A stretch of 64,000 nucleotides of DNA from Dictyostelium discoideum (taxonomy: Eukaryota): positions 3,008,001-3,072,000 of the forward strand of contig CM000152.2 in NCBI GenBank assembly GCA_000004695.1, written 5' to 3'. The notes below the pieces were generated by a model. The model was not told the DNA's origin. It saw only the letters and a program-made list of their open reading frames with translations, and searched no databases. A program made the translations under genes and the position numbers. Shown one piece after another: positions 2,631-58,824 of the stretch (positions are counted from its first letter, which is position 1; the number at the start of each line of letters is the position of its first letter).

Positions 2631-4067
2631 ATGAATATTAAAGAATTAGTATTAAAATTAAATGAAATTGATGCAATTAAATTAGGAGAATTTAAATTAA
2701 AGAGTGGTATTATTTCACCAATTTATATTGATCTTAGAGTTACAGTATCATCACCACCATTGTTAGCAGCAATTGCAGAGATGATGTATCAAAAGGTTTA
2801 TAAATCTGGTAATGCACAAGAGACACCAGCATTAGTATGTGGTGTACCATATACAGCATTACCAATTGCAACAGGTATGTCAATTGCCAACAATATTCCA
2901 ATGGTAGTACGTAGAAAAGAAGCCAAAGCATATGGTACCAAACAATTGATTGAAGGTCGTTTCAAAGAGGGTGACAATGTATTGGTTGTTGAAGATTTAG
3001 TAACAAGTGGTGCAAGTGTACTTGAAACAGTTAGAGATTTAAATTCAGTTGGTTTAAAAGTTACAGACGTAGTCGTGTTATTAGATCGTCAACAAGGTGC
3101 CAGACAAGCACTTGAGAAACAAGGCTACCGTCTTCACTCAGTCTTTACAATGGAAGAGTTAATCAACACCTTAATCGAAGCTGGTAAATTAACCGGCCGT
3201 ACTTTAGAGTTGGTTCAATCATTCTTAGACGCCAATCGTAATGTAGTAGTACCATTACCACCAACCCTTGCCCCACCAGCACCAGCACCAATTGTTATTA
3301 ATAAACCATTTGAAGAGAGAGCTAAACTTGCATCAAATCCAATGGCATCTAAATTATTCACATTAATGTCAAGCAAGAAGACCAATCTTGCAGTTGCAGC
3401 TGATTTAACTGATAAACAACAACTTTTAGATTTAGCAGAATCAATTGGTTCAGAAATTTGTGTTTTGAAGACCCATGTTGATATCATTGATAATTATGAT
3501 GAAGAGTTTATTAAATCATTGAAATGCATAGCAGCAAAACATAATTTCTTGATTTTTGAAGATAGAAAATTCGCAGATATTGGAAACACTGTGAAATATC
3601 AATTTGAGAATGGTGTTTATAAAATCTCAAAATGGGCAGACATGGTCACCGTACATGGTGTCGCAGGTTCATCCATTGTCGATGGTTTCAAATCAGGTTT
3701 GAAAGAGTATGGTTCAGGTTTATTATTATTGGCTCAAATGTCATCAAAAGGTTCTTTGTGTGTTGGTGATTATACAACTCAAATGATTGAAATGGCAAAT
3801 AATAACAAAGAGGAGGTTATGGGTTTAATTTGTCAAGAACGATTACCATCAATGACTGATGGTTTGGTTTTAATGACTCCAGGTGTTCAATTCAATTCAA
3901 CTGGTGATGCTATGGGTCAACAATATAATACTCCAGAATATATCATTAAAGAAAAGAATACTGATGTTATCATTGTTGGTAGAGGTATTTATCAAAGTAA
4001 TGATCCAAAATCTGTTGCAAATAAATATAGAACTGCTGCTTGGGAAACTTATCAATCAAAATTTTAA
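2631..4067 (+). CDS. pyr56: UMP synthase: bifunctional orotate phosphoribosyltransferase plus orotidine-5'-phosphate decarboxylase
   Basis: Single 478-aa ORF. N-terminal half is an OPRTase fold with the PRPP motif ([18 protein letters not shown]). C-terminal half is ODCase ([34 protein letters not shown]...[13 protein letters not shown]...IIVGRGI). Domain order matches Dictyostelium pyr5-6. Confidence 0.95.
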
Positions 4068-6061: not shown

Positions 6062-7761
6062 GATATATATAAATATATGTACTAATTTTTATTTTTTATT
6101 TTTATATAGATTGAAATTTCATTTATTTCACATGAATTTCATAATGAAAAAGAATTATCAGAAGAAAAAGTTGAAGAAATTGTTAAATCAATTTTAACAG
6201 GTTCAGAATTTGATAAAACATATTCAAAATTTGAAAAACAATTTGATGATAAATTTAATAAGAAATTCCTTGGTGAAAAATTAAAAAAACATAAACCAGA
6301 AATTTATAAAGTATCAAAAGAGTCACTAAGTAATTTATTAGGTGGTTTCGGTTATTGGTATGGTAGTGGTATTACAAAGAAATCTTTAAAATCTGATAAA
6401 ATTATTAAATCTAAACCAGTTGTAAGTTTAATATTTATTATAAATTAATCAATATATATTAATATATTAATATATTAATTATTTTTATTATTTTAAAAAA
6501 ACAAAATAAAATTAAAAAAAAGGCATTATTTTCAGCAACACCATCAAGACCAGCATTTCCAAGAGGATTTTTATGGGATGAAGGATTTCAACAATTATTA
6601 GCATCAACATTTGATGTTGAATTAACAATTGAATCATTATCACATTGGTTAAATATTATGGATGAAAATGGTTGGATACCAAGAGAACAAATTCTTGGAC
6701 TTGAAGCAGCATCAATGGTACCAGAGGAATTTAGATTACAATTACCAAATATTGCAAATCCACCATCAATCATATTAGCAATTAATAAATTATTAGAGAT
6801 TTCACAAGCATATAAAGAGAGAACAACAACTAATAATAATAATAATAATAATGTTGATAGTAATAATTTTAAAATTAATATGATTAGAGATCTTTCAGTT
6901 ATTATTGAAAATAATAAAGAGTATGATTCAATTCAAAGATTTTTACATTCAGCATTACCAAGAATTGAAAGATTTTATCAATATTATTGGAATACTCAAT
7001 CATCAGGTTTAATTGAAAATTCATTCCGTTGGAGAGGTAGAAAGGTTAATCATACATTGGCATCTGGATTAGATGATTATCCAAGAGCATTGGAACCATC
7101 GACTTCAGAGATACATGTGGATTTAAATAGTTGGGTTGCTTTCTTTGCAAAATCATTATCAACTCTTACAAAATATTTAGGTGGTAGTGATAATAAGAAT
7201 CAAGAGAAATCTGAACTTTATTTCAAACAATTTACATTGATTCGATCAAATATTGAGCAAATGCATTGGGATGAGGAAGAGAATCTTTTCCATGACATTT
7301 TAATTCACAAGAATGGTAGTAAACAGTTTATTAGAACTTATGGTTACATGAATTATTTCCCAATGTTATTGGGTGTGTTGGATGTTGATTCTGCAAAACT
7401 TTCACCACTCTTAACCACTCTCAAAGATGTTAATGGAATTTGGTCAAGATGGGGTATTCGTTCAATGTCTTTAAAGGATAAGAATTTCGGTACTCATGAA
7501 AACTATTGGAAAGGTCCAATTTGGATCAATATCAATTATCTCTTTGTTCATTCTATGAATAAATTCTATACAAAAACTCCTTCAATCAATGAATGTTATC
7601 AAACACTCAGATTCAATCTCATCAATAACATTGGTAATATTTACTCTGAAACTGGTAATATCTATGAACAATATGATCCAATAACTGGTTTAGGTACAAG
7701 AAATCGTCCATTTAATGGTTGGACTGCTTTAGTTTCTTTAATTTCTTCTGAACAATATTAA
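4864..7761 (+). CDS. Mannosyl-oligosaccharide glucosidase (processing alpha-glucosidase I, GH63), 4 exons, with an in-frame poly-Asn insert
   Basis: Exons 4864..5314, 5420..6024, 6110..6421, 6523..7761; donors GTAAAA/GTAAAG/GTAAGT and acceptors ...AAAAG/TATAG/AAAAG. Signal peptide MKKINIITSSLLLLILITFSSLIKS. GH63 catalytic-domain motifs: GFLWDEGFQQLL, HWLNIMDENGWIPREQILG, GLDDYPRA, GPIWININYLFVHS, YEQYDPITGLGTRNRPFNGWTALV. Confidence 0.85.
5562..5650. repeat. (AAT)~29, coding poly-Asn inside exon 2 of the glucosidase I gene
   Basis: Uninterrupted AAT run, in frame with flanking GH63 coding sequence. Confidence 0.9.
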
Positions 7762-7955: not shown

Positions 7956-9596
7956 TTAATACTTTTTCTTTTTATGAACTTTTTTAATAACTTTTCTTTT
8001 ATTTATATCAATTGAACCTTCAGAATCACCAGAATGTCTATCAGAAGAACTTGAATAATTTTTATCTTTTAATTCATTTGTTGCAATTCTATGAGCTTCT
8101 TGAACTCTTTCTAAAAAGATTAAAACTGTTTCTTCTTGACATGGGAAAGAATCCAACTTTTTCTTTAAAACAAATTCAATACGTTGATACATTTCAACAT
8201 CGTATTGAGTGACGATAGTGATGGCACGACCAGAATTACCAGCACGAGCAGTTCTACCAACTCTGTGAACGTACTCTTTTGAATTGGTTGGTACATCATA
8301 ATTGATGACTAAATCAACTGATGGGATATCTAAACCTCTAGCAGCAACATCGGTTGCCACTAGAATTGATTTTGTACCTTGTTTAAATTTATTTAAAGAT
8401 GCTAAACGTTTACCTTGATCCATATCACCATTGATTGGAATTGCACCAAATCCTAAATTTCTTAACATCATTGCAATCTTTGTGGATGATGCGCAAGTCG
8501 ATGTGAAAATAATGGTTAAATTACCCGCCAATTCATTTAAAATGTATGCTAAATAACAATCTTTATATTTAAATGGTACGAAAAGGTATTGTTGAAGTAA
8601 TGTATCTACAGTTTGATATTTTGATGCAACTTGAACTTTCACTGGATTAACCAATGATGCTCTTTGAAGTTTTGCAACTTTTGATGTCATTGTAGCAGAG
8701 AAAAGGTATGTGTTTCTCTCTTTTGGTATCACTTTTAGAATGTTGTTAACTTCCTCTTCGAAATCTGCAGAGAATAAACGATCGGCTTCATCCATAATAA
8801 AGTATTTAATAGAACGTAAATTGAAACCTTTTGTATGCTCCAAATGATGTAAAACTCTACCTGGTGAACCTACGACCACATGTGGTTTCTTTGCCAATGC
8901 CAATGATTGTGACATTGAATCAATACCACCAACTAATACACAAGTTTTCACACCAATCGTTGAACCGATTGCATTGAATTGATCGGCAATTTGATATGCT
9001 AATTCTCTAGTGGGTGCCAATGCTAAACAGAATAAACCTTGTGGTGCTTCCAATAGCTTTTGTAATACTGGAATTACGAATGCTGCTGTTTTACCAGAAC
9101 CAGTTTGTGCCAACCCAATAATATCTCTACCTTTTAATGCCCATGGAATAGATTCCCTTTGAATCTCTTTTGGTTTATTAAATCCTAATTTATTACATGC
9201 ATCAATAATTTGTGGGTGAACTCCCAATGATTCAAATGTAACATTCTCATATTTCTTTTCCTCTTCTTCTGATTTCTTTTGATTTGTATTATTTATAAAT
9301 TCTTCAATCTCTTTTTCTTCTTCTTCTTTTTCTAATAATGAATCTTCATCTAATTCTTCATTTTTAATTTCTTTTTTAATTTCTTTTTTAATTTCTTCTT
9401 TAACTTCTTCTTCTTCTTCTTCTTTAACTTCTTTTTCCTCTTGTTTTTTAATTACTTTTTTTACAATTTGTTTTGGTTTTTCTGTCAATGTCGATTTCTT
9501 TGGTGCTGCTGCTATTGATGTTGTAGTTGTTTTTTTTACAACTGCACTACCATTACTTTTTAATGTTGGTTTTTTTTTTATGTCTGTGATTGCCAT
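7956..9596 (-). CDS. ddx47: ATP-dependent DEAD-box RNA helicase, DDX47/Rrp3 orthologue
   Basis: Single 546-aa ORF. Q-motif and motif I ([13 protein letters not shown]), Ia (PTRELA), DEAD box (MDEADRL), SAT (LFSATMT), motif VI ([10 protein letters not shown]). N-terminal acidic/lysine-rich extension and C-terminal basic tail typical of Rrp3/DDX47. Confidence 0.9.
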
Positions 9597-10895: not shown

Positions 10896-12988
10896 TTAAT
10901 TTTCAGACATTGGTTTTAATTTTGCTGAAAATGTTTTCATTTGTTTAGCAATGACCTTCTTTTTATATATTGTAACAATAGTAGCAAAAGTTATTGCAAT
11001 AGCAGCAACAGAACAACCAACGATAATTCCAGCCAATTGTGCTTTTGATAATCCAGATGATGGTTTTGGTGAGCATATTGAATTTTCATTATCATTTGTT
11101 GTTGATGGATTTGAATTGAGAAGTAATGAGAAATCTGGATCAATTATTACATTTTTGTTATAGATTGGTACATTAATACCAATAAATGATTGAGATGTGT
11201 GCGAATCACTAATTGCACCTAATGATTTATCTAATAATTCATTTGAAATTGTAATTGGAACTGAATCAACCAATGCTCTTTTAATTAATCTACCATATAA
11301 ACTTTTATTTGATATTGATAATTTAATAAAATCTGAACCTTGACTCGTTGTGCTATCAAATTCTTTATTTGAACATGAATCTGAATCTGAATTAATTATA
11401 GCAGTTGCTGATAAAATTAATTGCAATTGGCTCAATCTAGTTGAAAATGGATATTTCTCAATATAAATTGTATATTTAATTGATGATGGTTTCATTTTAA
11501 TTTCTTGACCTGCAAATTCAATTTTTCTTTCATTTTCAAAGTATTCAATACTAACTGAAATTGGTGTTGTTGTTCCATTTTTATTTATAATATTGGATGA
11601 ATATGTTGATAATTTAGAATTATTTGAAATATAATCCCATTTATCAAATGAATACATATGTAAAACTTTATTATTATAATCGATCTCTCTAATTGCTACA
11701 ACACTTACTAAAGCAACAATGCTTGATTCTGAATTGTCTGATGTACCATTTAATATAATTGTTGGAGATGTATTATTGAATTCTGGTTGAGGCACAACAA
11801 TAACTTTAGAATTACAATCTACACCAACCCATGGAGAATTACAAATACAACCTAATACATCATCGCAGGTACCCTGGGTTGGACCACCACAAATTGGTGT
11901 ACCTCTACATTTGGATGTTAAAATTGGTCTAAAGTATTTAATTCTGTATGGTGTGATTGTGTACATGTTTGATCTTGAATTTCCATTTTTAATTGAAATT
12001 GTAAATGGATCATTTGATGGTTTTACATCATCGACTTTAATAATTGAACCAGATTTCTTTGAAGGTGTTAATGAATAACCTTGACTGAATTCAACATTAA
12101 AATCACCATTTATTGGGAATTTACCATATATCAATAATGAACCACCTTCTGTTGATATTAGACTTGTACCTGTAATTAATCCAGGACTCTGAGAATCCAT
12201 TACAGTGAAGCTTGTTTCAATTAAAAATGGATATCCCATGGTTCTTAATGTAGGCGATGAGTAACCAAAGTATTCACCAAATCCAATTAAACCATAAAGA
12301 TTAACCATAATATCTTGTGGTAATCCAAATCCATACGGTATTGTTAATGTACATTTGTATTGGTTGAATGTTGAATTTACTTGTGTCGTAATTACATCAT
12401 TACATTTAATTTTTTGGAAAGTTGCACTTGTTAAATAAACAATTGGATATTCTTTAATACCTGATCCAATTGAAATTTCATATGTAAATGTTACATCTCT
12501 ATTTAATGATCCAACATTAATACTTTTTGGTTCAAAATCAAATGATTTTAATTCTGGTTGAGTGAAAACACCACCTGGACATTCAGTTTCAATTGAGAAA
12601 AAACTTTTATCTTTAATTGGATATAATGGATTGATATTTGGAGTATAATCTATAGCTTTATTCATAAAGAAAGTTGAATTTAAACCATATCTATCATACA
12701 ATACCATTTCTGCAATTGAGTATGTTTGAGACGTACATGTATTATTATTTAATGTTATATTGATTTGATATGTAAGTTCATTTGAATATTCAATTGGTGA
12801 AACAATTGAAACATTATAAAGAATATTATCAATTGAACCAATAACAACAACATAACCATTATTGAAACCTGAATAATCATTAATTGTAACTACCCAACTA
12901 ATATTATAATTTTCATTATCTATTAATGCCACACCTAAACTTGGATTTTTATTCATTGTTGTTACAATTGGTCCCATTAAATCAATAC
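10896..12988 (-). CDS. Terminal (largest) exon of tgr-like paralog 1
   Basis: Acceptor TTTTAG at 12990..12989, then open frame to TAA at 10896. Contains the IPT-like, EGF and TM segments. Confidence 0.7.
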
Positions 12989-15239
12989 CTAAAATTTTGT
13001 TAAAAATAAAAAATTAATTAATATTGTTTTAATATTGATTAAATAAAATAGGTTTTACATACGATCACATATTACATTCAATTGGTATTCATAAGGTAAT
13101 TCAGTATTTAAAATATAATGTAAACCTGGTGTTCTAATTGCATATTCAAAATCACCTGGAACAATATTTGGAGGCATAAAAAATTTAAATTCATATCTTG
13201 AATTAATCCATTCACCATTAATTGTTATATTATCCCATTGAGGTATTATTTGAAGATATGGATCAAATGACAATGGAGAATCATTTGTTTCAAGATACAT
13301 AATATTATAACCATATGAGTTTGTTAAATTAACATCATTAAATAAGAAACTTATATTTGATATTGATTCAACATTAAATCCTATAAAATATAATTACTAC
13401 GATTAATAAATAAATAAAAAAACAAAAAATAAATATTGTATGTTACATACCAAAATTATTTAAAACAGGATAAGATAGCAATAGTTCGGTGGAAATAGAA
13501 TTTGTATCAGTTAGCAAAATTTCAAAATCAGGTCCACTCATTATATTATATTGATAGAAAAACTCCAATTCACCATTTTTTAAATCACCACTTAATATAT
13601 TGAAATCTGTTGAATAATATTGATAAATACCATTTGATTTATAACCCCCACTATAACTATTTAATATTATACTTGAAATACTAAATTGGGTCGAATATTT
13701 CAAATAAACCCTTCTAACATTGAAAAAATAATCTTGTTCTCTATACTCTAAAATTGTTGGGCCTGATGAATCTTTGTATAATTGTGGTTAGTTAATAAAA
13801 TAAACAATAAAGGGATATAATAATATGTGATAACATACTTGTATTGGGACCATTAAAATTTATTGTTTCTCCACCAATATCAAATGTATATCCTTGATCA
13901 GATAAATTTAATGTTGTTAAAACTGAAAAATCCATTATAAATTCATTATTATTTCCACTACCATATCCAAATGGAAAACCAGCAACTGATGTGGTATCCC
14001 AAAGAAATCTTTTCCAAGTATATTCAATTTCTTTTCTATTTATTTGGTTCTTTATAAAACAATTAATATTAAATAATCTATTATTGTTCAAAACAATTTC
14101 ATTGGTTGTTATATTTGAAATATTTAATAGAAAATCTAAAGTTTTTTATTTGTTAGTTTTTTTTTTTTTTTTTTTTGTTTTTATATTTCAAAACTTACAA
14201 GTATTATTATATATTTTTTTAATTTTTGATAATTTTGAATAATTTTGATACTGTAATTTAAAGTTTAGACTCCCATAATAAATTGATTTTAGATTTATGA
14301 AATAGTTAAAGGTTCCATCAATATTACTCGAGACTACCTTTGGTTTAAATGGAGATTCCATCACATTGATATATGGATATCTTTCAATTGGTTTAAAAGT
14401 GAACCAGTATTGGGGATAGTCAAAAGAGGAAATCATTTCAAATTCGCTTGGTTCATAATGAAGTATTGTCATATTATCGTAACTAATTGAACCTATGTTT
14501 TATTTATTAGTTTGAAATCCACTACGAATATTGAAAAATATTTTTTTAAATATACATACTTTTTTTTGGGGATGGGAGATCATATTGTTCAGATCCTATA
14601 AATATACTCCAAATTGGTGAAAAATCATCTGGTGCACCCCTAAATGTTAGTTTATATTTATTAAAATCAAAAGAAAGAGATGCACTAAAAACATCAACAT
14701 TAAATGTTGATAACCATGGTGGGTCTGTATTATCTTCCAAACCTGTAATATTAACATATAAACTATATGTTGATTTAAAAAAATTAAATGTATAATTGGA
14801 AATTGGTACAAATTTTAGATTTTTAGGAGTATCTGATATTTTTTATTTTGTTAGTAAATTTTTTATTATTTTTTATTATTTTTTATTAATATTTACCATA
14901 ACATATAATTTTTTGAGGAAATATTTGGGAAGAGCTTGGATTTTTAGAAGTAACATTGACATAAAAAATTATATCTCCAATATTTGCTGAAAAATATACA
15001 GGTGAAGTGATTGTACCACTAAATTTCTCTAACTGGTATTGGAAAATAGTTGTAGTATTATCCAGGGCGACCCAATCAATGTTTTCAATTTCTTCACTGT
15101 CAATGACTATTGAAGTTTCAAAATTACATCCCCCAAATGTTGCATATTTATTTTTAAAATTTGTTTGTAAAACAAAAATTGATAAAGTAAAATTTAAATA
15201 TAAAATAATAATAACAGTACAAATAAAAAATTTATTCAT
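10896..15239 (-). CDS. Large multi-exon type-I membrane glycoprotein (~1150-1250 aa): signal peptide, IPT/TIG-like module, tenascin-type EGF module, C-terminal TM plus short basic tail. Candidate member of the Tgr/Lag (tiger) cell-surface family. Paralog 1 of a tandem array
   Basis: Exon 1 15239..14897 (MNKFFICTVIIILYLNFTLS signal peptide; donor GTAAAT). Exon 2 from 14742 (acceptor ATTACAG). Further exons correspond to minus-strand track ORFs 14546..14740, 14188..14472, 13792..14091, 13443..13703, 13055..13300; precise splice sites not all resolved. Terminal exon 12988..10896. IPT/TIG-like signature ...ISTEGGSLLIYGKFPINGDFNVEF...; EGF CRGTPICGGPTQGTCDDVLGCICNSPWVGVDCNSK; TM LAGIIVGCSVAAIAITFATIVTIY then KKKVIAKQMKTFSAKLKPMSEN*. 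Many N-x-S/T sequons. Confidence 0.65.
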
Positions 15240-16153
15240 TTTGTTACTGAAACAAATGAAAAAAAAAAAAAAAAAAAAAAAGAAAGAAAAAAAATAAAAC
15301 TTAAGAATAAAGAAATTAAAATTTTAGTGGCTTGAAAAGTTCTTTTATTGGTTTTCTAATGTTGTTCTTAGTTTTTAATAATCAATTTAAAAAAATGGGT
15401 TTCAAAAAAAAGATTCAAATAAAAGTATATAAATATTGGAGTAGTAGGCTAAAGTCTTTCCGAAAAATATAAAATAAACATAATGCTCTTAAATAGTTGA
15501 TGGGTGGGATGATTAAAAATACTTTCCTAATAATTTAGTTGGATATTTTAAAAACCAAAAAAATTAAAATCAACCCACTTTTTTCAAATAAACTTTTTCC
15601 AATTTTTTTTTTTTTTTCCCACAAGCCCAATTATTTCAATTTCATTTTAATCTTTTTTTATTAATGTTATCTGAATGTTTTTTTTTTATTGTTCATTTGT
15701 TGTTTGTGATAAATGTGTAGATGATTGTGGTGTTTGTGTTTGTATAATCTTTTCAAATTGTACTCTTTTAGATTGTGGTAATTCAAAATTAATAAATAAA
15801 AATTTTAATGGTTTTTCAACTTGACTCATTATTAATTATTTATTATTATTTATGCACTGTGTTATTGTGTTACTACTATTATAATATTATGGATTTGAAT
15901 TGGATCAATTATTTATTTGAAAAGGAATCTAAATCTGAATCTGAATTTGAATTAATTGAAATTGATTTAATCTTGTTGAAAATGGATATAAATTACATAT
16001 GCTTCAGTTTGTAAAAAAAAAAAAAAAAAATAAAAAAAATTTAAAAATATCAATAATATTGTTTTTTTAATTTTTTTTTTAATTTTTTTTTTTTTTAAAA
16101 TGATTTTTCATAATAAAAAGTGGAACGTTTTCTTGCATTAACGAAAATTTTTT

Positions 16154-16193
<40 letters not shown>

Positions 16194-16228
16194 ATTATCC
16201 TTTTCTGACCCATTTACATTCCAGTAAA

Positions 16229-16918
<690 letters not shown>

Positions 16919-17069
16919 TAGTAAAAATCTTTCATATAATTAATAATTTACAAATGATAATCCTTAGAAAATAATAAAATAAATAATAATATTGGTTATT
17001 TAAAAATTGTTTTATAATAAATAGAAATATTTATTTAATTATTTTTTTTATTTTAGAAATTCCTTTTTA

Positions 17070-18710
17070 TTATTTCATTGCTATTAATTTATTACTAAAA
17101 ACTTTCATTTTTTTTTTAAGATTTCTTTTCTTTTTGGTTGTAACAACAGTTGCAACAGTTATTGCAATAGCGACAACACAACAACCTATGATTATTCCAG
17201 CTAATTGTGCTTTTGATAATCCAGATGATGACGATGGTTTTGGTGAACATATTGAATTATAATTTGTTGTCGATGGATTTGAGTTGACCTGCAAATTCAA
17301 TTGTTCTTTCATTTCAAAGTATTCAATACTATATTAGATGAATATGTTGATAATTTATAATTATTTGAATTATAAATCCATTTATCGAATGAATACATAT
17401 GTAAAACTTTATTATTATAAACGATCTCTCTAATTGCTACTATATTTATTAATGCTACTATATTTGTTTCTGAATTATCTGATGTTGTTGTTTCGTTTAA
17501 AACAATTGTTGGAGAAGTTGTATTAAATTCTGGTTGAGGTACTATAATAACTTTAGAATTACAATCTACACCAACCCATGGTGAATTACAAATACAACCT
17601 AATAAATTATCACATGTACCATGAGTTGCACCACCACAAATTGGAGTTCCTTTACATTTTGATGGTTGAGGCTTGGTAATAACTTTAAAATTACAATCTT
17701 CGCCATCCCATTGCCAATTACAAATACAACCTAATACATGATTACATGTACCATGAGTTGGACCACCACAAACTGGTGTACCTCTACAGTTTGATCTAAA
17801 ATATTTAATTATGAATGGTGTAACTGTGTACATGTATGATTTTGAATTTCCATTTTTAATCGAAATTGTAAATGGATCATTTGATGGTTTCGCGCCATCT
17901 ACTTTAATAATTAAGCCAGATTTCGTTGAAGGTTTTAATGAATATCCTTGGCTGAATTCAACAGTAAAATCTGCATCTGGTGGGAATCTACCATAAATAA
18001 ATAGTGAACCACCTTCTGATGATATTGGACTTGTACCTGTAATTAATCCAGGGCTTTGAGAATCCAATACTGTGAAACTTGTTTCAATTAAAAATGGATA
18101 TCCATTGTTTCTTAATGTTATTGATGAATAACCAAAGTAAGCTCCAAATCCAATTAAACCATAAAGATTGACTAAAATATCTTGTGGTAATCCAAATCCA
18201 TATGGTAATGTTAATTTACATTTGTATTGGTTGAATGTTGAATTTGTTTGTGTTGTAATTACATCATTACACTTCAATGCTTGAAAGAGCTGCGCTTGTT
18301 AAATAAACAATTGGATATTCTTTAATACCTGATCCAATTGAAATTCCATATGTAAATGTTACATCTCTATTTAAAGATCCAACATTAATACTTTTTGGTT
18401 CAAAATCAAATGATTTTAATTCTGGTTGAATAAAGCTTCTTCCACTTGGACATTCAGTTTCAATTGAGAATAAACTTTTATCTTCAATTGGATATAGCGG
18501 ATTGATATTTGGAGTATAGTCTAAACCTTTATTCATAAAGAAAGTTGAATTTAAACCATATCTAACATATAATACCATTTCTGCAATTGAGTATGTTTGA
18601 GATATACATATGCATTATTATTTAATGTTATATTGATTCGATATGTAAATTCATTTGAATATTCAATTGGTGAAATAATTGAAACATTATAAAGAATATT
18701 TTAAATCAAA
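17070..18710 (-). pseudogene. Decayed, 5'-truncated paralog of the flanking tgr-like genes. Mosaic of the two intact copies, with tandem EGF modules, frameshifts and internal deletions
   Basis: Homology to the copy-1 terminal exon begins abruptly at ~18710. Frameshift near 18270-18300. Two EGF modules at 17309..18277 (CRGTPVCGGPTHGTC..., copy-1-like, then CKGTPICGGATHGTC...NSPWVGVDCNSK, copy-3-like). Sequence corresponding to copy-1 11141..11508 and ~35 bp near copy-1 11560 is deleted. The last 80 codons (17070..17312) keep the TM and tail. Confidence 0.75.
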
Positions 18711-19045
18711 AATAGAGATCACATGAAAAAATAAAAAAAAAAAAAAAAAAGGAAAAAAAAAAAAAGGAAAAAAAAAAATTATGATCCACATAGAAAATAA
18801 AAGTACATTATTTTATTTCTTATTTTTAATTATTTAATTAATTTACTTTTTTTTTATTTTTTTTTATTTTTTATTTTATTTTATTTCTTTTTTTTTAATA
18901 TTCTTAATAAATTTTATTAAATTGTTGTTGTTAAATTGGAAGATGGTTTTAAATTATTATTATTATTTTTTTTTTTTTTTTTTTTTTCCATTTAATAGAT
19001 GAGGAAAAATTTTAAAATGTCGATTTGATTTTTAAAGACAATTTA

Positions 19046-22000
19046 TTAATTATTTATTGCTTGCATTTTTTTCCCAAACACCTTCATTTCTTTTTTTAGA
19101 GCTTTTTTTCTTTTTATTGTGACAACAGTGGCAAAAACAATTGCAATAGCACCAACGGAACCAACAATTATCCCTGCTAACTGGGCTGTTGTTAAACCAG
19201 ATTTGGATTTTGTTGATTTTGCAGAACAAATTGAATTTTCATTTGTTGTTGTTGATGGATTTGAATTGAGAATTAATGAGAAATCTGGATCAATTTTAAC
19301 ATTTTTATTATAGATTGGTATATTAATACCAATAAATGATTGGGATGTGTGAGAATCACTAATTGCACCTAATGATTTATCTAATAATTCATTTGAAATT
19401 GTAATTGGAGTTGAATCAACCAACGCTCTCCTTATGAATCTACCATATAAACTTTTACCTGATATTGATAATTTAACATAATCTGAACTTTCACTTGTTG
19501 TATTATCAAATTCTTTATTTGAACATGAATCTGAATTTGAATTAATTATTGCAGTGGCTGATATAATTAATTGTAATTGACTCAATTTTGTTGAAAATGG
19601 ATATTGATCAATATAAATTGTATATTTAATTGATGATGGTTTCATTATAATTTCTTGACCTGCAAATTCAATTTTTCTTTCATTTTCAAAGTATTCAATC
19701 TCTACTGAAATTGGTGTCATTGATCCATTTTTATTTATAATATTAGATGAATATATTGAAACATTTGAATTAATTGAATTATAAATCCATTTATCGAATG
19801 AATACATATGTAAAACTTTATTATTATAATCGATCTCTCTAATTGCAACTACATTTATTAATGCTACTATATTAGTTTCTGAATTATCTGATGTCGTTTC
19901 ATTTAATATAATTGTTGGTGAACTTGTATTAAATACTGGTTGAGGTACAACAATAACTTTAGAATTACAATCTACACCAACCCATGGTGAATTGCAAATA
20001 CAACCTAATACATCATCACATGTACCATGAGTTGCACCACCACAAATTGGTGTTCCTTTACATTTTGATGGTAATGTTGTTTTAATAAATCCTCTTTTAT
20101 ATGGTTTAATTATATATGGATTTGATTTTGAATTACCATTTTTGATCCAAATTGTAAGTGGACCACTTGATGGTTTTACATCATCGACTTTAATAATTGA
20201 ACCAGACTTCTCTAGAGGTAGTAATGAATAACCTTGACTGAACTCAACAGTATAATAAACATCTGGTGGGAATCTACCATAAATAAATAATAAACCACCT
20301 TCTGTTGATATTGAACTTGTACCTGTAATTATTCCTCCACTATTTGAGTTTATGACTGTGAAACTTGTTTCTATTAAAAATGGATATCCCAATTGCTGTA
20401 ATGAATATGATGAATAACCAAAGTAAGCTCCAAATCCTATTAAACCATAAAGATTAACGATTATATCCTTTGGTAATCCAAATCCATATGGTATTGTTAA
20501 TGTACATTTGTATTCGTTGAATGTTGAATTTGTTTTTGTTGTAATTACATCAATACATTTCAATATTTGAAGAGTTGAACTAGTTAAATAAACAATTGGA
20601 TATTCTTTAATACCTGATCCAATTGAAATTCCATATGTAAATGTTACATTTCTATTTAATGATCCAACATCAATATTTTTTGGTTCAAAATCAAATGATT
20701 TTAATTCTGGTTGAATGAAACTACCACTTGGGCATTCAGTTTGAATTGAATGTAAATTCCTATCACTTATTTTAAATAATGGATTGATATTTGGAGTAAA
20801 ATCTACTGCTTTATTTATATAAAAAGTTGAATTTAAACCATATCTATCATATAATACCATTTCTGCAATTGAGTATGTTTGAGATATACATGTATTATTA
20901 TTTAATGTTATATTGATTTGATATGTAAATTCATTTGAAAATTTAATTGGTGAAATAATTGAAACATTATAAAGAATATTATCAATTGAACCAATAACAA
21001 CAACATAACCATTATTGAAACCATTATAATCCTTAACTGTAAATGTCCAACTAATATTATAATTTTCATTATCTATTAGTGCCACACCTAAACTTGGTTC
21101 TTTATTCATTGTTGTTACAATTGGTCCCATTAAATCAATATCTAAAAACATATGTTTTTTAAAATAAAATTAATAAAACTATAATTAAAAAAATTAAATA
21201 AACAATTTAAAGATACATACGATCACTAATTATATTCAATTGGAATTCATCAGGTAATTCAGTATTTAAAATATATTGTAAATTTGGAGTTTTTATAGCA
21301 TATTCAAAAGCTCCTGGAACAATATTTGGAGGCATGTAAAATATAAATTCATAACGAGAATTTACCCATTCACCTTTAATTGTTATATTATCCCATTGAG
21401 GTATAATTTGAAGACATGGATTAAATGGTAATGGAGTATCATATGTTTCAAGGTACATTATATTATAACCATATGAATTTGTTAAATTTACGTCATTATA
21501 AAAGAAACTAATTTTTGATATATTCTCTGCATTAAAATCTATTAATTTATAATATTAAAAATTAGGAAAAAAGACTTTAAAAATTAATATAAAATAAAAT
21601 TAAAATAATAAACATACCATAATTTTGATCATATAGTTGTGGAAATGAAAGGGTATCTAAAAATGATTGATAATAACTATTTTGTTCTAAAATTGTATAT
21701 TCTGAATTTGAATCATAGATATTTAAAACTATAAAATCATTCTTTAGTAATCCATAAGTATAAATAAATTCAATAATACCATTATTAAGACTACCACTGA
21801 TAATGTTAAAATCTGTTGAAAGATAAACATAGGAATTCTGGAAAGCATTATTGATACTAAAATGGAATAATTCAATTTTAGAAATTCCATTTGGTGTTGA
21901 ATAATTAAATCTAAATAAAAGTTTGTTATCATCTTCTGAAAAAGTATCTAAAATATTAAATTTGGTAATTAATGGTGCTGAAAGATCTATAAATTAATTT

Positions 22001-23543
22001 TATAATTAGGTTAATAATAATTTAAATAAATAATATTAGAAATTTGTAAAAATATAATTTGTTACTTTTAAAATTAGGACCAGAGAATGAATATGAATAA
22101 CTTCCAACTGAAAATGAGTATGAACTATTTGATACATCCAACATTGTAAAAATTGAAATATCTAAATTAAAATTTTTATTATTTCCAGAACCAAAACCAA
22201 AAGGAAATGATTCATAATTTGTTTTACCACCTTCCCAATTATATTCAATTTCATTTCTACTTGTTAAATTCTCTCCTTTATAATTTAAGAATGTTAATAA
22301 ATCATCTAAATTAACTATATTTTTTGAACTTTGTAAATCTGTTGGTTCAAATTTAAAATCTTGATCTATATTTTTAATTAAAATGTTAGAAAAATAATAA
22401 AAATAAAAAAACAAAATTATAATTCTAATTCTTACATTTATAACTATTTTTATCTTGATATACATCTGAATAATTTTGAAGTGATAATGTACATAATACT
22501 TCACCAATAGAAATAATAAGTCTTGCATTAATAAAGTAGTTAAGAGATCCATCATCATAACTTGATACTATCTTTGGTAAGAAAAAAGAATCTCTTAAAT
22601 TAATATATGGATATCTTTCATTTGTTTTAATATTAATCCAAAATTGAGGATAATCAAATTTTGAATTCATATTATGATTAATATTATAGTAATCAATTAC
22701 TGCAGAATTTACATAACTAATTGAACCTTTTTTTTTTTTTAATTAATTATTAATTAACATTAATATTGTAAAGATAATCAAAATGTAAATTATTATTAAA
22801 ACTTACTATTAAATGGTGATGATATATTAAATTTTGGTGAACCATCAATGTATTCAAAAGACCATGTTTTTGGAGCAACGGTTTTTGGTGTACCGAAAAA
22901 TGTTAATTTGTATCTTCCATCATATTCATAGTCAATAGAAACTGAAAAAATACCACTCTCTGAAGTAGTAAGTCTGGGAACATATGAGACATCATCAATT
23001 AACCCACTCACATTAACATAACATGAATATGCTGATGTGAAATAATTATATGAATAACCAGATATTTGTTCAATTGTGAAATCAGTTGGAATTTCTATAT
23101 AATATAAATAAATAGATTTTTTTTTTTTTTTAATAAATGTTTAAAAAAAGGAAAATATATATATATATATTTTAATTACCCTGACACATAGGATAAGTTG
23201 TATGATATAAAAAACCACCATTTTTTGAATATGCTTTAACTCCAATTTCACATTGATTTATTGGACAATATACTCTCGCAGAAAATAACTGTGCTGTTTC
23301 ATTGTGAAAAATAACATTTACATCATTATAAGTTGTGAAAGCATTGAAACCACCCCAAGTTACATTATCCAATCCATTTAAATCTGAAACCAAAATTGAA
23401 AAACTGAATTCACATGAACCACCTATTGCATAAAAAGAAGATCCAAGTGAAAATTTAAATTCTTCAAATTTTAAATCTGAAATAACAAATTGAACAATAA
23501 ATCCAAACACCAATAAAAAATAAAAGTAAATATTAATTTTCAT
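19046..23543 (-). CDS. Tgr/Lag-like type-I membrane glycoprotein, paralog 2 of the tandem array, same architecture as 10896..15239
   Basis: Exon 1 from ATG 23543 (MKINIYFYFLLVFGFIVQFVISD signal peptide). Internal exons correspond to minus-strand ORFs 22796..23011, 22425..22670, 22022..22558 (part), 21207..21458. Terminal exon ~21163..19046. EGF CKGTPICGGATHGTCDDVLGCICNSPWVGVDCNSK; TM LAGIIVGSVGAIAIVFATVVTI then KRKKALKKEMKVFGKKMQAINN*. 3' two-thirds ~75-85% aa identical to copy 1; N-terminal exons strongly diverged. Confidence 0.65.
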
Positions 23544-23993: not shown

Positions 23994-26836
23994 CTATTCA
24001 TTTAAAATTGAAGTTATATAAGAAAGGTCAGATAGTTGCCAATTATTATCCCAAAATCCAAGAGCATTAGCACCCGATACACCTTGATAACCAAAATTTG
24101 GACCTAATATCATGAAATCTGGCATTGGGAAAGATGATTTAGTTGGGAAATTGAAAAGACTATTTTGGAAACCAATAGTATCAGTACCCTCAATAACTGT
24201 AAGCATACAACCTTGTCTAGCTTGAGTATAACGTTCTTTTGGTGTAATTTTCATAATGGCCTCTGGTGAATAACATGATGATAAAAACAATAAACCAACA
24301 GAAGGACCTGAAAACATATTTGAATCATCATTTAAAGAGAATGACATATTATCACTTGAACCATGGAAACCAATTGGTGATGGTAAAACTGATTGAATTG
24401 AGTAAACTGCTTTATTTGTTTGTGGGCCTCCCATAAATATTACATTATAAGTTGTGAATAAGTCATTTGTGAATTGAGTATCCTCTAAAACATTTATTGA
24501 ATATCTCATTTGATACATTAAAACATTTGATAAATAAACTGCAGATTGTTGACGTTGATTGGTTTGTTGTTCACTTCCAATTGTACCATAAACAATTAAA
24601 ATTGGATAATCTAATATTTGTACCATTGGACCAGAATTTAATGGTGATCTTTCACTCCACATCCAATCATTACCATCATTACAAATTGACCAAACTACAC
24701 TTGAACCACTCTTTTTATTATTTTTAACCTTTGTACCATCGGTACAATAATGTGATGGTAGTTGAATATAATTAAATTTTTGACCATCGATAATGACTTG
24801 ATTTGGTTTCTCATTGAATGAATTGAAACCAAATCTTTTTACATTCTCTGTTTGTAGTGACCAAATACCACTTGATAAAGAGTTTGTTTTATCAACACGA
24901 ATTTTTGAAGCTTTGAAATTATTAATGGCTTGTTGAATTGAAACACCACCTTTGCCTTGGAAAGAGCCAGGATTTAAACAATTGATTAAAAATCTGTCCG
25001 GTAATAATGGTATACCAGAGATTGCATATTTGCTAAGGAATGCTTGCATGATTGCATCATCAACCACACCATTGAACCAATGATTTTCTCCTGGGATTTC
25101 ACTAATTAACCCAATACTTGTATTATGTGTTAACTGATCATATAGACGTAGCATACGTCTAAGATGATAGGGTGGCACATTATCATCATCTGAACCCATA
25201 CGAACTATCATTGGTATATTGATTAAATGTGGTGAGTGGAAATCTGCATCATTTTGACTAACTACTGAATCTAGAATAAATCTTATCATTGGATTACTCC
25301 AAGAATAACCAACTCTAAGGAAATTTGGTGAATATAATTTCATATCAATCCAACCTGCTGCAATTGATAATGATACCACTCTATCTGGTGAAATTGCTGT
25401 TGCGAAATGTTCACTACCATGTCCACCCATACTATGACCTAGTACTTGAAGTTGATATGGATCACATTGATATTTGGTTTTCAAATTGTTTGGCACACCA
25501 GGTAATGAATTACATAAATAATCCAATGCCATCAATCCATTCTTTATACCACCCTCTTCCCAATCGAATCCATAATTGGCTCTATTTGTTGGTAATAATA
25601 TCCATGTATAATTTTGAACTTGAAATGCGCCTGTCCACGCCGATGATTTTGCATCAACACCTGCACCATGTAATGCAAATAAAACTGGTGTTGGTGATAT
25701 ACCTCCTTCTATATCATTTGGTGGTATTGCATCAGCATATTGAATTGATAAATCAAAATCTTGAAATGTAAATGTAAATGGTTCACCAAATGATTTACAT
25801 GTAAAATTTAATGTTATTAATTCACCTTTTGATTGTGGGGATTGAGGATAAACCATCATACTAAATGCATAGGTTGTACCTGAAGGACAATTAATAAGAC
25901 CACTACCATTACTAGTTTTAACAATGAAATTGACAGGAATTAATTGACCAGGACCAATGTAATTAATTTCTTGAGGTAATGGTGATTCAATTAATGAAAC
26001 TTGAAACTCATCAGTTAATGGCTCTAATGATATCATGCCACTGATTGGTTGATTCAATATATTCAAAACTGAAATTGAGATAAAAGGTGATGAAAATTCA
26101 TTATCAACTATATCTGGTACAATCGTATTTTCATAGACTATGAAAATTGATTGCTCCTCTTTGGTTGTTATGATTTCACATTGATAACTTGCTGCCTCTG
26201 ATCCAATGATTCTAACTTTTAATTGATGTGTACCACTTGATAATTGAATTGAATTAAATTGTAATCCCAATCCATATGAATCACCTTGCATCACTGTTGA
26301 ATCTATCCAAAACTTTGCAATACCTGAACATGTAACTAAAATGGTTTCACTAGTATTCAATGAAAATGTTGAAATTCCCCAACCACTAAAATATGTGCCA
26401 CTTGATCCTGCCCAATTATTTATTAAATCCCAATTTACATTATTTGAAAAATTTAAATTAACCATACCATCAACATTTGTTGTATAATGATTCCATCCAA
26501 CTCTAAATTTTTATTTATATATAATAAATATAATAAACAAATAAATAAAACAAATAAAAAAAATAAAAAAAATTAATACATTATATATGTTTTTATATTA
26601 ATTTAAAAAAACACATACCTTGCTCCATTAACTAATTCACTAATATATGTTGAATTATCACCTATTGGTATATTATCAATTCCACCATAACAATTTAATA
26701 CATCAACATCTTCTCTTGGTGCACTTGGAAATGGTGCTAATATATCCCATTCTGTTAAATAATAATTTTCACAATTAACTAGGTTTTGGGATATTAAAAT
26801 AATAAATAATGAAAGTAAATATAATAACAATTTCAT
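23994..26836 (-). CDS. Secreted alpha/beta-hydrolase-fold protein (~908 aa), GHSMGG nucleophile elbow, lipase/PGAP1-like; 2 exons
   Basis: Exon 1 26836..26619 (MKLLLYLLSLFIILISQNLVNC signal peptide, donor GTATGT). Exon 2 26502..23994 (acceptor AAATTTAG). Motifs YQLQVLGHSMGGHGSEHFA (GxSxG) and a downstream MGSDDDNVPPYHLRRM acid/His region. Specific substrate unknown. Confidence 0.7.
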
Positions 26837-49300: not shown

Positions 49301-49688
49301 GTTGGATAGAAATGATAGAATTATTGATAATGGTAGAGATAGAGGTGATAGAATTATTGATAATGGTAGGGATAGAATATATTCATCTCAACAACAACAG
49401 CAGCAACAGCAACAACAACAACAACAACCACTTCTCCTACTTCAACATCATCAACCACAATCAAGCATTTTAACATCCTCATCCTCTTCATCTTCAACAA
49501 CTACAACCACTACAACAACAACTGTACCATCATCATCATCGTCATCCTCTTCATCTAATTTATTACCAACAACAACTTCAATAACAATAGCTTCAAACGA
49601 TATTTTATCATCGTCAAATCTTTTAAATGCTCCAATTACTCCAAGTAAAAGAGAAAGTAAATGGGATAAAGAATCAACTAATGGGTCC

Positions 49689-49719
<31 letters not shown>

Positions 49720-49739
49720 ATAATAATAATAATAATAAC

Positions 49740-49780
<41 letters not shown>

Positions 49781-49796
49781 TAATAATAATAATAAT

Positions 49797-49827
<31 letters not shown>

Positions 49828-49877
49828 GTACATCATCAGTTGGCACTACCTCAAAATCAATTACCCCAACAAAATAA
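46033..49877 (+). CDS. PWWP-domain protein with very long low-complexity regions (Ser/Thr-rich, polyQ, polyN) and an Arg-Asp dipeptide-repeat (RD/RDRDW) domain; 2 exons, ~1222 aa
   Basis: Exon 1 46033..46241 (YGQVVYGRMPGYPQWPARVHDP...ILLHFFSSND; HDGF-like PWWP, donor TA|GTAGGT). Exon 2 46421..49877 (acceptor TTTTTAAG; continues Y-AWLTPDSV, i.e. the FFxxxxxAWL part of the PWWP fold). RD domain ~48880..49380 (DRDRDWDRDRDRIDHRDRDWDRLDDRGRDRDFRDRDIRDRDFRDRDRDFRDIRDRDLWERDRLLDRERDLRDRDLWERDRMLDRDRERDRLDR). Confidence 0.75.
49690..49830. repeat. (AAT)n/(AAC) tract, coding poly-Asn at the C-terminus of the PWWP protein
   Basis: ~45 Asn codons with occasional ATT/AAC variants. Confidence 0.9.
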
Positions 49878-55720: not shown

Positions 55721-55755
<35 letters not shown>

Positions 55756-58512: not shown

Positions 58513-58548
<36 letters not shown>

Positions 58549-58824
58549 GAAGAAAATGAAAATAAACAAGAACAAGAACAAGAACAAGAACATCAACAAG
58601 AACAAGAACATGAACAAGAACAAGGACTTGAAGAGCAAGAGCAAGAACAAATTAGTCCAGTGGTTGAATCAACATCATCATCATCATCATCCCAATCACC
58701 AATTGAATCATCAATTCAACCAGTGGTTCAAGAACAATCAATTACTATGGATGATTATATTTTAGATGATGGTCAAGATACTGAAGAATTTTATAAAAGT
58801 TTAGATAAAAGTAATAATGTGTAA
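53638..58824 (+). CDS. Large polytopic membrane protein (~1600 aa) built from at least 12 tandem 'hydrophobic helix + W-R-x-P' modules, plus a C-terminal Gln/Glu-rich tail; 4 exons (a 5th possible)
   Basis: Exons 53638..54104 (an optional in-frame 91-nt intron 53746..53836 cannot be excluded), 54180..54456, 54570..54881, 54973..58824. Recurrent unit: acidic-residue-[IVL]-P-F-(hydrophobic)n-G-L-(hydrophobic)n-[WY]-R-x-P-x-x-I. Examples: ADVPFLFMGLIVTILLWRAPFMY, LDLPFVLSSFIILLTLWRSYAFV, MDIPTFIGLLLITITIYRLPKTI, IDIPFPILILMTMWRLPILI, LDLLCLVPTLFILLTGWRIPSFI, VDIPFVLMGLITIPFLWRGPFLI, LDLVIFLELIIITCTMWRFKTFI, ILAPWRIPTAI, TLYRIPVLI, TIVRIPFML. Confidence 0.65.

What the first reader, a model, noticed from the sequence alone, without database searches (positions are those of the whole stretch)
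10896..23543. Tandem array of Tgr/Lag-like polymorphic surface-glycoprotein genes: two intact paralogs flanking a hybrid pseudogene
Three head-to-tail minus-strand copies of a ~4.3-kb multi-exon gene encode a type-I membrane protein. It has an IPT/TIG-like beta-sandwich signature (...ISTEGG-LLIYG-FP...), a tenascin-type EGF (CxGTPICGGxTxGTCDxxLGCICNSPWVGVDC), a dense N-glycosylation pattern, a single TM and a short basic tail.

This architecture fits the Dictyostelium Tgr (TgrB1/TgrC1, allorecognition/kin-discrimination) family. That family is known for tandem duplication, pseudogenisation and extreme polymorphism.

If correct, this locus is a candidate self/non-self recognition cassette. The two intact copies would be expected to be among the most polymorphic genes between wild isolates.
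Basis: partly seen in the sequence, partly recalled or inferred. Interest (0 to 1): 0.7.

Follow-up and report, generated by a model that had tools for sequence, protein, structure and literature searches.

The report
ComC-type surface glycoprotein gene cluster
This is a real tandem cluster of two intact genes and one broken copy for large cell-surface glycoproteins of the social amoeba Dictyostelium discoideum.

Summary
The window is D. discoideum AX4 chromosome 3. On the minus strand lie two intact 7-exon genes and a truncated, frameshifted mosaic copy between them:
- A, 10896-15239, 1312 aa, DDB_G0280149
- C, 19046-23543, 1341 aa, DDB_G0280157
- B, about 17070-18706, DDB_G0280155

A and C are type-I membrane proteins with a signal peptide, an all-beta ectodomain, one EGF module, one TM helix and a short basic tail.

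The Tgr assignment does not hold. Pfam finds DUF7035, DUF7034, DUF7949 (EGF-like) and the ComC supersandwich domain, and no TIG. All 35 sampled relatives share that architecture. One domain just before the EGF module is weakly IPT/TIG-like.

Polymorphism is not extreme. Synonymous divergence between strains equals that of the neighbouring gene (about 0.09). dN/dS is higher (0.3 against 0.07), mostly in the N-terminal half.

Copy number and the presence of B vary between isolates. The 3' halves of the paralogues are far more alike than the 5' halves.

Verdict: these are annotated but uncharacterised ComC-family surface receptors evolving by birth and death. Interest is modest.

The parts
10896..15239 (-). 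Gene A = DDB_G0280149. Intact 7-exon gene of 1312 aa encoding a type-I membrane glycoprotein.
   Evidence: The splice model was built. Its translation is identical to KAM9949670.1 and clusters with XP_641272.1 / Q54VT3. dN/dS against orthologues is 0.30-0.38.
13063..15239 (-). Gene A exons 1-6: signal peptide plus the variable N-terminal 'head' (aa 1-616). No Pfam domain is detected. The region is predicted to be all-beta.
   Evidence: No Pfam hit. AlphaFold model mc9d753ed316f has mean pLDDT 59, with aa 30-200 at about 80-90, and is all beta-strand. Foldseek hits are Ig/FnIII arrays. This half is 43% identical to gene C, against 79% for the C-terminal half. pN/pS for exons 1-5 is mostly 0.4-1.4.
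12576..12986 (-). Gene A DUF7035 domain (aa 617-753).
   Evidence: Pfam PF23034, E 4e-28.
12204..12557 (-). Gene A DUF7034 domain (aa 760-877).
   Evidence: Pfam PF23033, E 3e-27.
11937..12203 (-). Gene A IPT/TIG-like beta-sandwich (aa about 878-966, containing ISTEGGSLLIYGKFP).
   Evidence: Pfam TIG does not hit. The family profile hits CGTase domain D, plexin-A2 and Met IPT at E 0.002-0.01. Model pLDDT is 84-91. The positional equivalent in P0024 is Pfam TIG at 21.0 bits against a cut-off of 20.9.
11802..11909 (-). Gene A EGF-like module (aa 976-1011, six cysteines).
   Evidence: Pfam DUF7949 E 1e-12, with weak EGF_2 and teneurin-type EGF hits.
11121..11726 (-). Gene A ComC supersandwich domain (aa 1037-1238).
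10965..11042 (-). Gene A transmembrane helix (aa about 1265-1290), followed by a lysine-rich tail of about 22 aa.
   Evidence: Hydropathy scan. Predicted helix in the model.
16229..16918 (+). Intervening opposite-strand ORF of 229 aa (coiled-coil plus poly-Asn). It is not a family member.
   Evidence: ORF list. No Pfam hit. A gene of 203-221 aa is called at the same place in four other genomes.
17070..18706 (-). Copy B = DDB_G0280155. Truncated, frameshifted A/C mosaic with a duplicated EGF module and most of the supersandwich domain deleted. Probable pseudogene.
   Evidence: The body of B is absent in the two other D. discoideum isolates examined.
19046..23543 (-). Gene C = DDB_G0280157. Intact 7-exon gene of 1341 aa with the same architecture as A: DUF7035 20729-21139, DUF7034 20357-20710, TIG-like 20090-20356, EGF 19955-20062, SSD 19271-19888, TM about 19112-19189.
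   Evidence: Splice model. Translation identical to XP_641276.2 / Q54VS9. Pfam domains. dN/dS 0.33-0.34 against alleles in other isolates.

Best explanation
The locus is a tandem cluster of genes from the large dictyostelid ComC-related family of type-I surface glycoproteins. It evolves by duplication, loss and exchange between copies.

**Protein architecture (shown)**
Each intact protein consists of, in order:
- a signal peptide
- an N-terminal 'head' of about 600 aa made of beta-sandwich domains
- a conserved membrane-proximal 'stalk': DUF7035, DUF7034, one IPT/TIG-like domain, one EGF-like module and a galactose-mutarotase-like supersandwich domain
- one TM helix and a short basic tail

**Evolution of the array (shown, except where marked)**
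- It arose by tandem duplication.
- The stalk-encoding 3' halves of the paralogues are far more alike than the heads (inferred: gene conversion).
- Copies are gained, lost or broken in different isolates. B is such a casualty.

**Function (inferred only)**
- The proteins act at the cell surface as adhesion or recognition receptors.
- The fast-evolving head binds a ligand.
- The conserved stalk and supersandwich domain couple to a partner membrane protein, because the tail is too short to signal alone.
- This is by analogy with ComC, which is needed for normal aggregation.
For: **Gene models and topology**
- Intact gene models match database proteins exactly.
- Topology was checked.

**Family assignment**
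- The Pfam architecture is well above the curated cut-offs.
- 826 cluster representatives are related at E<=1e-3 and 364 at E<=1e-30. Most are about 1300-1400 aa with the match in the C-terminal half.
- Of 35 sampled: DUF7035 35, DUF7034 34, DUF7949 33, ComC_SSD 31, DUF7743 24, TIG 0.

**Structure**
- Both models are all-beta and match Ig/FnIII/IPT arrays of receptors and adhesion molecules.

**Selection**
- The genes are under purifying selection: dN/dS is 0.30-0.38 overall, and the reading frame is intact in the A orthologue of D. cf. discoideum.
- pN/pS is 0.2-0.4 for exons 6-7 and mostly 0.4-1.4 for exons 1-5.

**Head and stalk diverge differently**
- The C-terminal halves are 73-98% identical among all clade members. 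The N-terminal halves fall into types only 42-49% alike.
- Between A and C, dS is about 1 in the head and 0.05-0.5 in the stalk.

**Variation between isolates**
- L003 has A duplicated and lacks the body of B.
- L004 has three full-length genes.
- L002 has a longer B, a split C and a transposase insertion.

**ComC phenotype**
- ComC has EGF domains, a signal peptide and a TM helix, is restricted to group 4 (PMC4931340), and its mutant aggregates aberrantly (PMC2873529 Table 1).
Against: - No expression, localisation or mutant data for these three genes could be found. Function rests on architecture alone.
- A and C lack the LRR_ComC domain of ComC-type proteins. The analogy to ComC covers only the TIG-EGF-supersandwich-TM module.
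- The N-terminal model has low confidence (mean pLDDT 59).
- Gene conversion is inferred from the dS profile and was not tested formally. Stronger constraint on the stalk would also raise amino-acid identity, though it would not lower dS.
- Some apparent breaks in other isolates (the split C in L002 and the split A in L005) could be long-read homopolymer errors.
Confidence: 0.8

Rival explanations
1. One reading: the genes are members of the Tgr (TgrB1/TgrC1) family and form an allorecognition cassette.
For: - They are type-I membrane proteins made of Ig-like folds.
- They have one weakly IPT/TIG-like domain.
- They are tandemly duplicated with a pseudogene.
- The window lies on chromosome 3, as does the tgrBC locus. 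The latter rests on gene numbering in PMC12745789 and on my own knowledge.
Against: - Pfam TIG does not hit at E<=1. Tgr proteins are defined by repeated IPT/TIG and E-set domains (PMC12745789).
- All sampled relatives carry DUF7035, DUF7034 and ComC_SSD, and none carries TIG.
- The AX4 names are not tgr.
- dS equals that of the neighbouring gene.
Confidence: 0.03
2. A second recognition system outside the Tgr family. The variable N-terminal heads would discriminate strains, species or prey and pathogen surfaces, and diversifying selection plus copy-number change would supply new specificities.
For: - The head evolves 2-4 times faster than the stalk relative to dS.
- Local windows have dN/dS above 1 in three contrasts: ACTFIW copy 1 against copy 2, aa 251-400, Nd 22-29 against Sd 1; C in ACTFIR against ACTFIW, aa 226-375, Nd 19 against Sd 2; A in AX4 against ACTFIW copy 1, aa 151-375.
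- In ACTFIW copy 2, exons 4-5 are 87-90% identical to AX4 while the flanking introns are 94-100% identical.
- Copy number varies between isolates.
- Between the close pair ACTFIR and ACTFIW, protein divergence is 5-15 times that of flanking genes.
Against: - No whole exon exceeds 1 after correction for multiple tests. The best case is exon 4, pN/pS 4.6, p=0.013 uncorrected among 42 tests.
- The windows were chosen after seeing the data.
- dS is not raised, so there is no sign of long-lived balanced alleles.
- Only 4-5 genomes were compared.
- A ratio near 1 fits relaxed constraint equally well.
Confidence: 0.1
3. An endolysosomal or phagosomal membrane glycoprotein. The supersandwich domain, TM helix and short tail would act like GLMP, as an accessory or protective subunit of a multi-pass membrane protein, rather than as a cell-cell receptor.
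For: - Both have a supersandwich luminal domain next to one TM helix and a short tail.
Against: - GLMP has no equivalent of the additional ectodomain of about 1000 aa.
- No sorting motif is evident in the tails (by inspection).
Confidence: 0.07

Closest known systems
ComC (communication mutant C) and ComC-type proteins of Dictyostelium, including the Pfam families ComC_SSD PF22933 and LRR_ComC PF24141
   Same: - Type-I membrane protein.
- The module order IPT/TIG-like, EGF-like, supersandwich domain, TM helix, short tail matches P0024.
- ComC has EGF domains, a signal peptide and a TM helix, and is restricted to group 4 dictyostelids (PMC4931340).
   Different: - A and C lack the N-terminal LRR_ComC domain.
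- In its place they carry DUF7035, DUF7034 and an unclassified beta-rich head of about 600 aa.
- They are paralogues at family level, not ComC orthologues.
The DUF7743-DUF7035-DUF7034-DUF7949-ComC_SSD subfamily, annotated 'EGF-like domain-containing proteins' (for example DDB_G0278531)
   Same: - Same domain order, length (about 1300-1400 aa) and topology.
- 31-35 of 35 sampled relatives share each core domain.
   Different: - DUF7743 is not detected in A or C, although the FPFGxGSGNN motif is conserved in the alignment.
- Identity to DDB_G0278531 is only 32-34%.
Tgr family (TgrB1/TgrC1 allorecognition proteins)
   Same: - Surface glycoproteins built of Ig-like folds with a single TM helix.
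- Birth-and-death evolution with pseudogenes and structural variation between strains.
- From memory of Kibler et al. 2003 (PMID 14651934, cited): ComC acts in one pathway with lagC/tgrC1.
   Different: - No repeated Pfam IPT/TIG domains.
- Different diagnostic domains.
- dS is not raised.
- Head-to-tail arrangement rather than head-to-head pairs.
- Not among the named tgr genes.
GLMP (glycosylated lysosomal membrane protein)
   Same: A galactose-mutarotase-like supersandwich domain immediately before a single TM helix and a short tail.
   Different: - 8% sequence identity.
- No further ectodomain.
- The resemblance is at fold level only.

Membership tests
Tgr (tiger) family | Repeated IPT/TIG or Ig E-set domains detectable by Pfam or InterPro (IPR002909, IPR014756), as defined in 10.1101/2025.10.22.684067 and PMC12745789. 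| tested here: not met
   PF01833 does not hit A, C or B at E<=1. Only one domain is weakly TIG-like, and only at profile level.
Tgr (tiger) family | The closest sequence relatives are Tgr proteins, and the gene is named tgrA-tgrT in AX4. | tested here: not met
   Of 35 sampled relatives, none has a TIG hit and 31-35 have each of DUF7035, DUF7034, DUF7949 and ComC_SSD. The AX4 names are DDB_G0280149/155/157, 'EGF-like domain-containing protein'. No Tgr sequence was compared directly.
Tgr (tiger) family | Signal peptide plus a single transmembrane helix (type I). | tested here: met
   Hydropathy scan and model. This feature is not specific to Tgr.
Tgr (tiger) family (tgrB1/C1 type) | Extreme polymorphism: nucleotide diversity and dS far above the genome background. 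| tested here: not met
   dS is 0.091-0.095 for A and C, and 0.086 for the adjacent hydrolase. Only 2-4 genomes per contrast were compared, and no population sample was available.
Tgr (tiger) family | Expression induced at aggregation. | not testable with these tools
   No expression data were available. The gene identifiers appear in no searchable paper.
ComC-related family | ComC supersandwich domain (PF22933) above the curated cut-off. | tested here: met
ComC-related family | EGF-like module directly N-terminal to the supersandwich domain, with a TM helix and short tail after it. | tested here: met
   DUF7949 at aa 976-1011, SSD at 1037-1238, TM helix at about 1265-1290. P0024 has the same order.
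ComC proper | N-terminal LRR_ComC domain (PF24141). | tested here: not met
   Absent from A and C and present in P0024.
DUF7035/DUF7034 subfamily of ComC-related proteins | DUF7035 followed by DUF7034, above the cut-offs. | tested here: met
   E 4e-28 to 4e-30 and 2e-27 to 3e-27.
DUF7035/DUF7034 subfamily of ComC-related proteins | DUF7743 in the N-terminal region. | tested here: inconclusive
   Not detected in A or C, but present in 24 of 35 relatives. The conserved FPFGxGSGNN motif aligns.
IPT/TIG domain (aa 878-966 of A) | Sequence or fold match to IPT/TIG. | tested here: inconclusive
   - No Pfam hit.
- hhalign to the TIG domain of P0024 gives only 10% probability.
- The 33-sequence profile puts CGTase domain D, plexin-A2, Met IPT and an 'IPT/TIG domain protein' among its top PDB hits, at E 0.002-0.27.
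- Foldseek lists Met IPT and plexin IPT arrays.
EGF-like domain | Six-cysteine pattern and a Pfam match. | tested here: met
   C976, C982, C990, C996, C998 and C1007. DUF7949 E 1e-12, with weak EGF_2 and teneurin-type EGF hits.

The most novel reading that the evidence does not exclude
The DUF7035/7034/supersandwich proteins are a second family of variable surface receptors in social amoebae, unrelated to Tgr. A rapidly diversifying N-terminal head is displayed on a conserved, homogenised stalk. Tandem copy-number change supplies new specificities for recognising strains, species or prey and pathogens.
Probability: 0.1. Interest if true: 0.65.

Novelty: already known. Interest (0 to 1): 0.27.

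Why it matters
**Correcting the family assignment**
- A reader who took the Tgr label at face value would add three genes to the kin-recognition repertoire. They belong to a different, much larger and almost unstudied family.
- That family has 826 cluster representatives at 50% identity with E<=1e-3.

**What is of some value beyond the correction**
- The head and stalk evolve very differently.
- Copy number differs between isolates.
- Both make the locus a reasonable test case for how dictyostelid surface-receptor families diversify. The public long-read assemblies (PMC12745789) now allow a proper test for selection.

**Limit**
- No function is known for any of the three genes, so the practical impact is limited at present.

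Tried and rejected
**Searches and look-ups**
- The first protein search seemed to show that A and C were missing from the databases. This was an effect of clustering at 90% identity. The exact look-up found both.
- The look-up of encoding contigs for DDB_G0280155 found nothing.
- Literature searches for the gene identifiers, and for comC together with lagC, returned nothing. One search was malformed.

**TIG-likeness of the segment before the EGF module**
- A profile of 11 sequences gave no IPT hit in the PDB.
- hhalign against the single TIG segment of P0024 gave 10% probability.
- Only the broader 33-sequence profile gave consistent, weak IPT/TIG hits.

**Whole-model Foldseek**
- It returns generic Ig-like arrays with low TM-scores because the models are flexible multi-domain strings. 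It shows the class of fold, not the family.

**Selection and polymorphism**
- I first read the 5-6% protein difference between AX4 and other 'D. discoideum' assemblies as hypervariability.
- I rejected that after finding that flanking genes differ by 1-2% and have the same dS. The paper also says these isolates are diverged from AX4 genome-wide.
- Sliding windows suggested dN/dS up to about 5-8. The by-exon re-analysis shows this does not survive correction for multiple tests.

**N-glycosylation**
- 'Dense N-glycosylation' is rejected as a signal. The sequon count matches composition.

**L001**
- It proved to be a paralogous locus, not an allele.

Full report
**Source and gene models**

The window is 22% G+C. 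It matches D. discoideum AX4 proteins exactly: DDB_G0280155 at 18578-17312, and UMP synthase, ddx47 (DDB_G0280147), DDB_G0280159 and an ankyrin protein. It is therefore AX4 chromosome 3.

I assembled the flanking copies by hand from the three-frame translations. Each has seven exons and six phase-1 GT..AG introns of 63-85 nt.
- Gene A: 10896-15239, 1312 aa.
- Gene C: 19046-23543, 1341 aa.

Both translations occur letter for letter in public protein sets.
- A equals KAM9949670.1. The older AX4 model DDB_G0280149 has 1282 aa.
- C equals DDB_G0280157.
- All three genes are named only 'EGF-like domain-containing protein'.

**The middle copy B**

- B aligns to A residues about 670-1083 and 1231-1309, in changing frames.
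- One extra base near 18290 leads to GTG TAA.
- A stop follows at 17309-17311, after which a separate 80-aa ORF carries the TM remnant.
- The EGF module is duplicated (120 bp), and most of the supersandwich domain is missing.
- At 188 sites where A and C differ, B switches between A-like and C-like runs.
- The AX4 model of 410 aa bridges the frameshift with a 34-nt 'intron', which looks like an annotation device.
- B has no signal peptide. I regard it as a pseudogene; this is an inference.

**What the proteins are**

Pfam gives the following for both A and C, and no TIG hit even at E<=1:
- DUF7035 (E about 1e-28)
- DUF7034 (about 1e-27)
- DUF7949, an EGF-like module (about 1e-12)
- ComC_SSD (1e-17 to 1e-20)

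The first 616 residues have no Pfam match. Topology is type I, with an N-terminal hydrophobic leader, one TM helix and a lysine-rich tail of about 22 residues. The 28 and 25 N-X-S/T sequons do not exceed the 22 +/- 4 expected from composition.

AlphaFold models:
- The exon-7 product has mean pLDDT 72.7 and is all-beta up to the TM helix.
- The N-terminal 657 residues have mean pLDDT 59, with aa 30-200 good, and are also all-beta.
- Foldseek matches both to strings of Ig, FnIII and IPT domains: IgE-Fc, ICAM-5, CD22, a Met IPT fragment, plexins, titin and the leptin receptor.

**Is there a TIG domain?**

The segment with ISTEGGSLLIYGKFP (aa 878-966) lies between DUF7034 and the EGF module.
- Pfam TIG does not hit it.
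- A small profile found nothing relevant in the PDB.
- hhalign to one TIG sequence was weak.
- A profile of 33 diverse family members aligns nearly end to end with CGTase domain D (E 0.004), plexin-A2 (0.005), the Met IPT region (0.011) and an 'IPT/TIG domain protein' (0.27).
- In P0024, a protein with LRR_ComC, EGF and ComC_SSD, the domain at the same position passes Pfam's TIG cut-off.

It concerns one divergent domain.

**Is it Tgr?**

No.
- Tgr proteins are defined by repeated IPT/TIG and E-set domains plus a TM helix. They comprise 38 named genes and 26 pseudogenes in AX4.
- An exhaustive HMMER search with the exon-7 product finds 826 cluster representatives at E<=1e-3 and 364 at E<=1e-30. 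Most are 1300-1400 aa and match in their C-terminal half.
- Of 35 taken across the top 150: DUF7035 35, DUF7034 34, DUF7949 33, ComC_SSD 31, DUF7743 24, TIG none.
- The family is the ComC-related one. A and C lack ComC's LRR domain, so they are family-level paralogues, not ComC orthologues.

**Polymorphism and evolution**

Syntenic loci were recovered from the assemblies of Holland et al. (PMC12745789):
- L002 and L004: D. cf. discoideum.
- L003 and L005: D. discoideum isolates that the paper says are diverged from AX4 genome-wide.

Protein identity to AX4:

| Compared with | Flanking genes | Gene A | Gene C |
|---|---|---|---|
| Other D. discoideum isolates | 98.2-99.2% | 93-94% | 93.3-93.6% |
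| D. cf. discoideum | 97-98% | 87-90.5% | not compared |
| D. citrinum | 93-96% | 77% | 63% |

Synonymous divergence is the same as next door: dS 0.091-0.095 for A and C against 0.086 for DDB_G0280159. dN/dS is 0.30-0.34 against 0.07. The genes are less constrained, not anciently polymorphic.

Constraint is uneven.
- Exons 6-7 have pN/pS 0.2-0.4.
- Exons 1-5 are mostly 0.4-1.4.
- Windows with dN/dS above 1 occur in the head in three contrasts.
- By exon, only exon 4 of the two tandem A copies in L003 stands out (4.6, p=0.013 uncorrected). Positive selection is suggested, not shown.

Between A and C, the head has dS about 1 and 43% identity. The stalk has dS 0.05-0.5 and 79% identity. This fits exchange between the 3' halves.

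Structure varies between isolates:

| Locus | State of the array |
|---|---|
| L003 | A duplicated; body of B absent |
| L005 | Body of B absent; A called in two pieces |
| L004 | Three full-length genes |
| L002 | B of 729 aa; C called in two pieces; DDE_1 transposase gene inside the array |

Some of the splits may be assembly errors.

**Mechanism**

Shown: the architecture, the family, purifying selection, the difference between head and stalk, and the copy-number variation.

Inferred:
- A cell-surface adhesion or recognition role, with the head as the binding part.
- The supersandwich, TM helix and tail coupling to a partner protein.
- This is by analogy with ComC. Its mutant aggregates aberrantly. 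From memory of Kibler et al. 2003 (cited), it acts upstream of lagC/tgrC1.

No expression or mutant data exist for these genes in the searchable literature.

**Verdict**

The Tgr interpretation fails on family membership and on the polymorphism prediction. It survives only as a loose functional analogy. The genes and their domains are already in public annotation, so interest is modest.

Noticed in passing
window 16229-16918 (+): A 229-aa ORF with a coiled-coil and a long poly-Asn tract lies inside the array on the opposite strand. It has no Pfam hit. A gene of 203-221 aa is called at the same position in four other Dictyostelium genomes. The exact AX4 sequence is not in the protein collection.
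   Followed up: partly
window 18272-18305 (-), within DDB_G0280155: The AX4 gene model joins two reading frames across a 34-nt gap. The sequence there has a +1 insertion relative to gene A. The 'intron' looks like an annotation work-around for a frameshift.
   Followed up: yes
window 10896-15239 (-): The AX4 RefSeq/UniProt model of DDB_G0280149 (Q54VT3) has 1282 aa. The newer D. discoideum annotation (KAM9949670.1) and my splice model have 1312 aa. The reference model probably misses or shortens an exon.
   Followed up: partly
L002 14159-16002: In D. cf. discoideum, a gene with DDE_1 and HTH_Tnp_Tc5 domains (a Tc5/pogo-type transposase) sits between the orthologues of A and B.
   Followed up: no
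L001 1-17906: This is a separate, non-syntenic cluster of four ComC-related genes or fragments in D. cf. discoideum. It is 83-90% identical to A, B and C at the DNA level. Next to it is a 717-aa gene with EGF_TEN and a weak TIG hit.
   Followed up: partly
L005 16211-19324: In one D. discoideum isolate, a 1037-aa gene with no Pfam hit on record occupies part of the position where AX4 has copy B. About 2.3 kb of it has no counterpart in L003.
   Followed up: no
gene A aa 1037-1238 (window 11121-11726): The best structural match of the supersandwich domain is GLMP, the single-pass accessory subunit of a lysosomal transporter. GLMP likewise has this fold directly before its TM helix.
   Followed up: partly
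window 23994-26465 (-): The neighbouring gene DDB_G0280159 (908 aa, weak alpha/beta-hydrolase and peptidase S9 hits) is highly constrained (dN/dS 0.07). It served as the local baseline.
   Followed up: yes
window 46410-49877 (+) and 55063-58824 (+): Two very long ORFs (1155 and 1253 aa) have no Pfam match at E<=0.001.
   Followed up: no
window 2631-4067 (+), 6658-7761 (+), 7956-9596 (-): The flanking genes are housekeeping genes: UMP synthase (pyr5-6), a GH63 glucosidase exon and the DEAD-box helicase ddx47. The array sits in an otherwise ordinary gene neighbourhood.
   Followed up: yes
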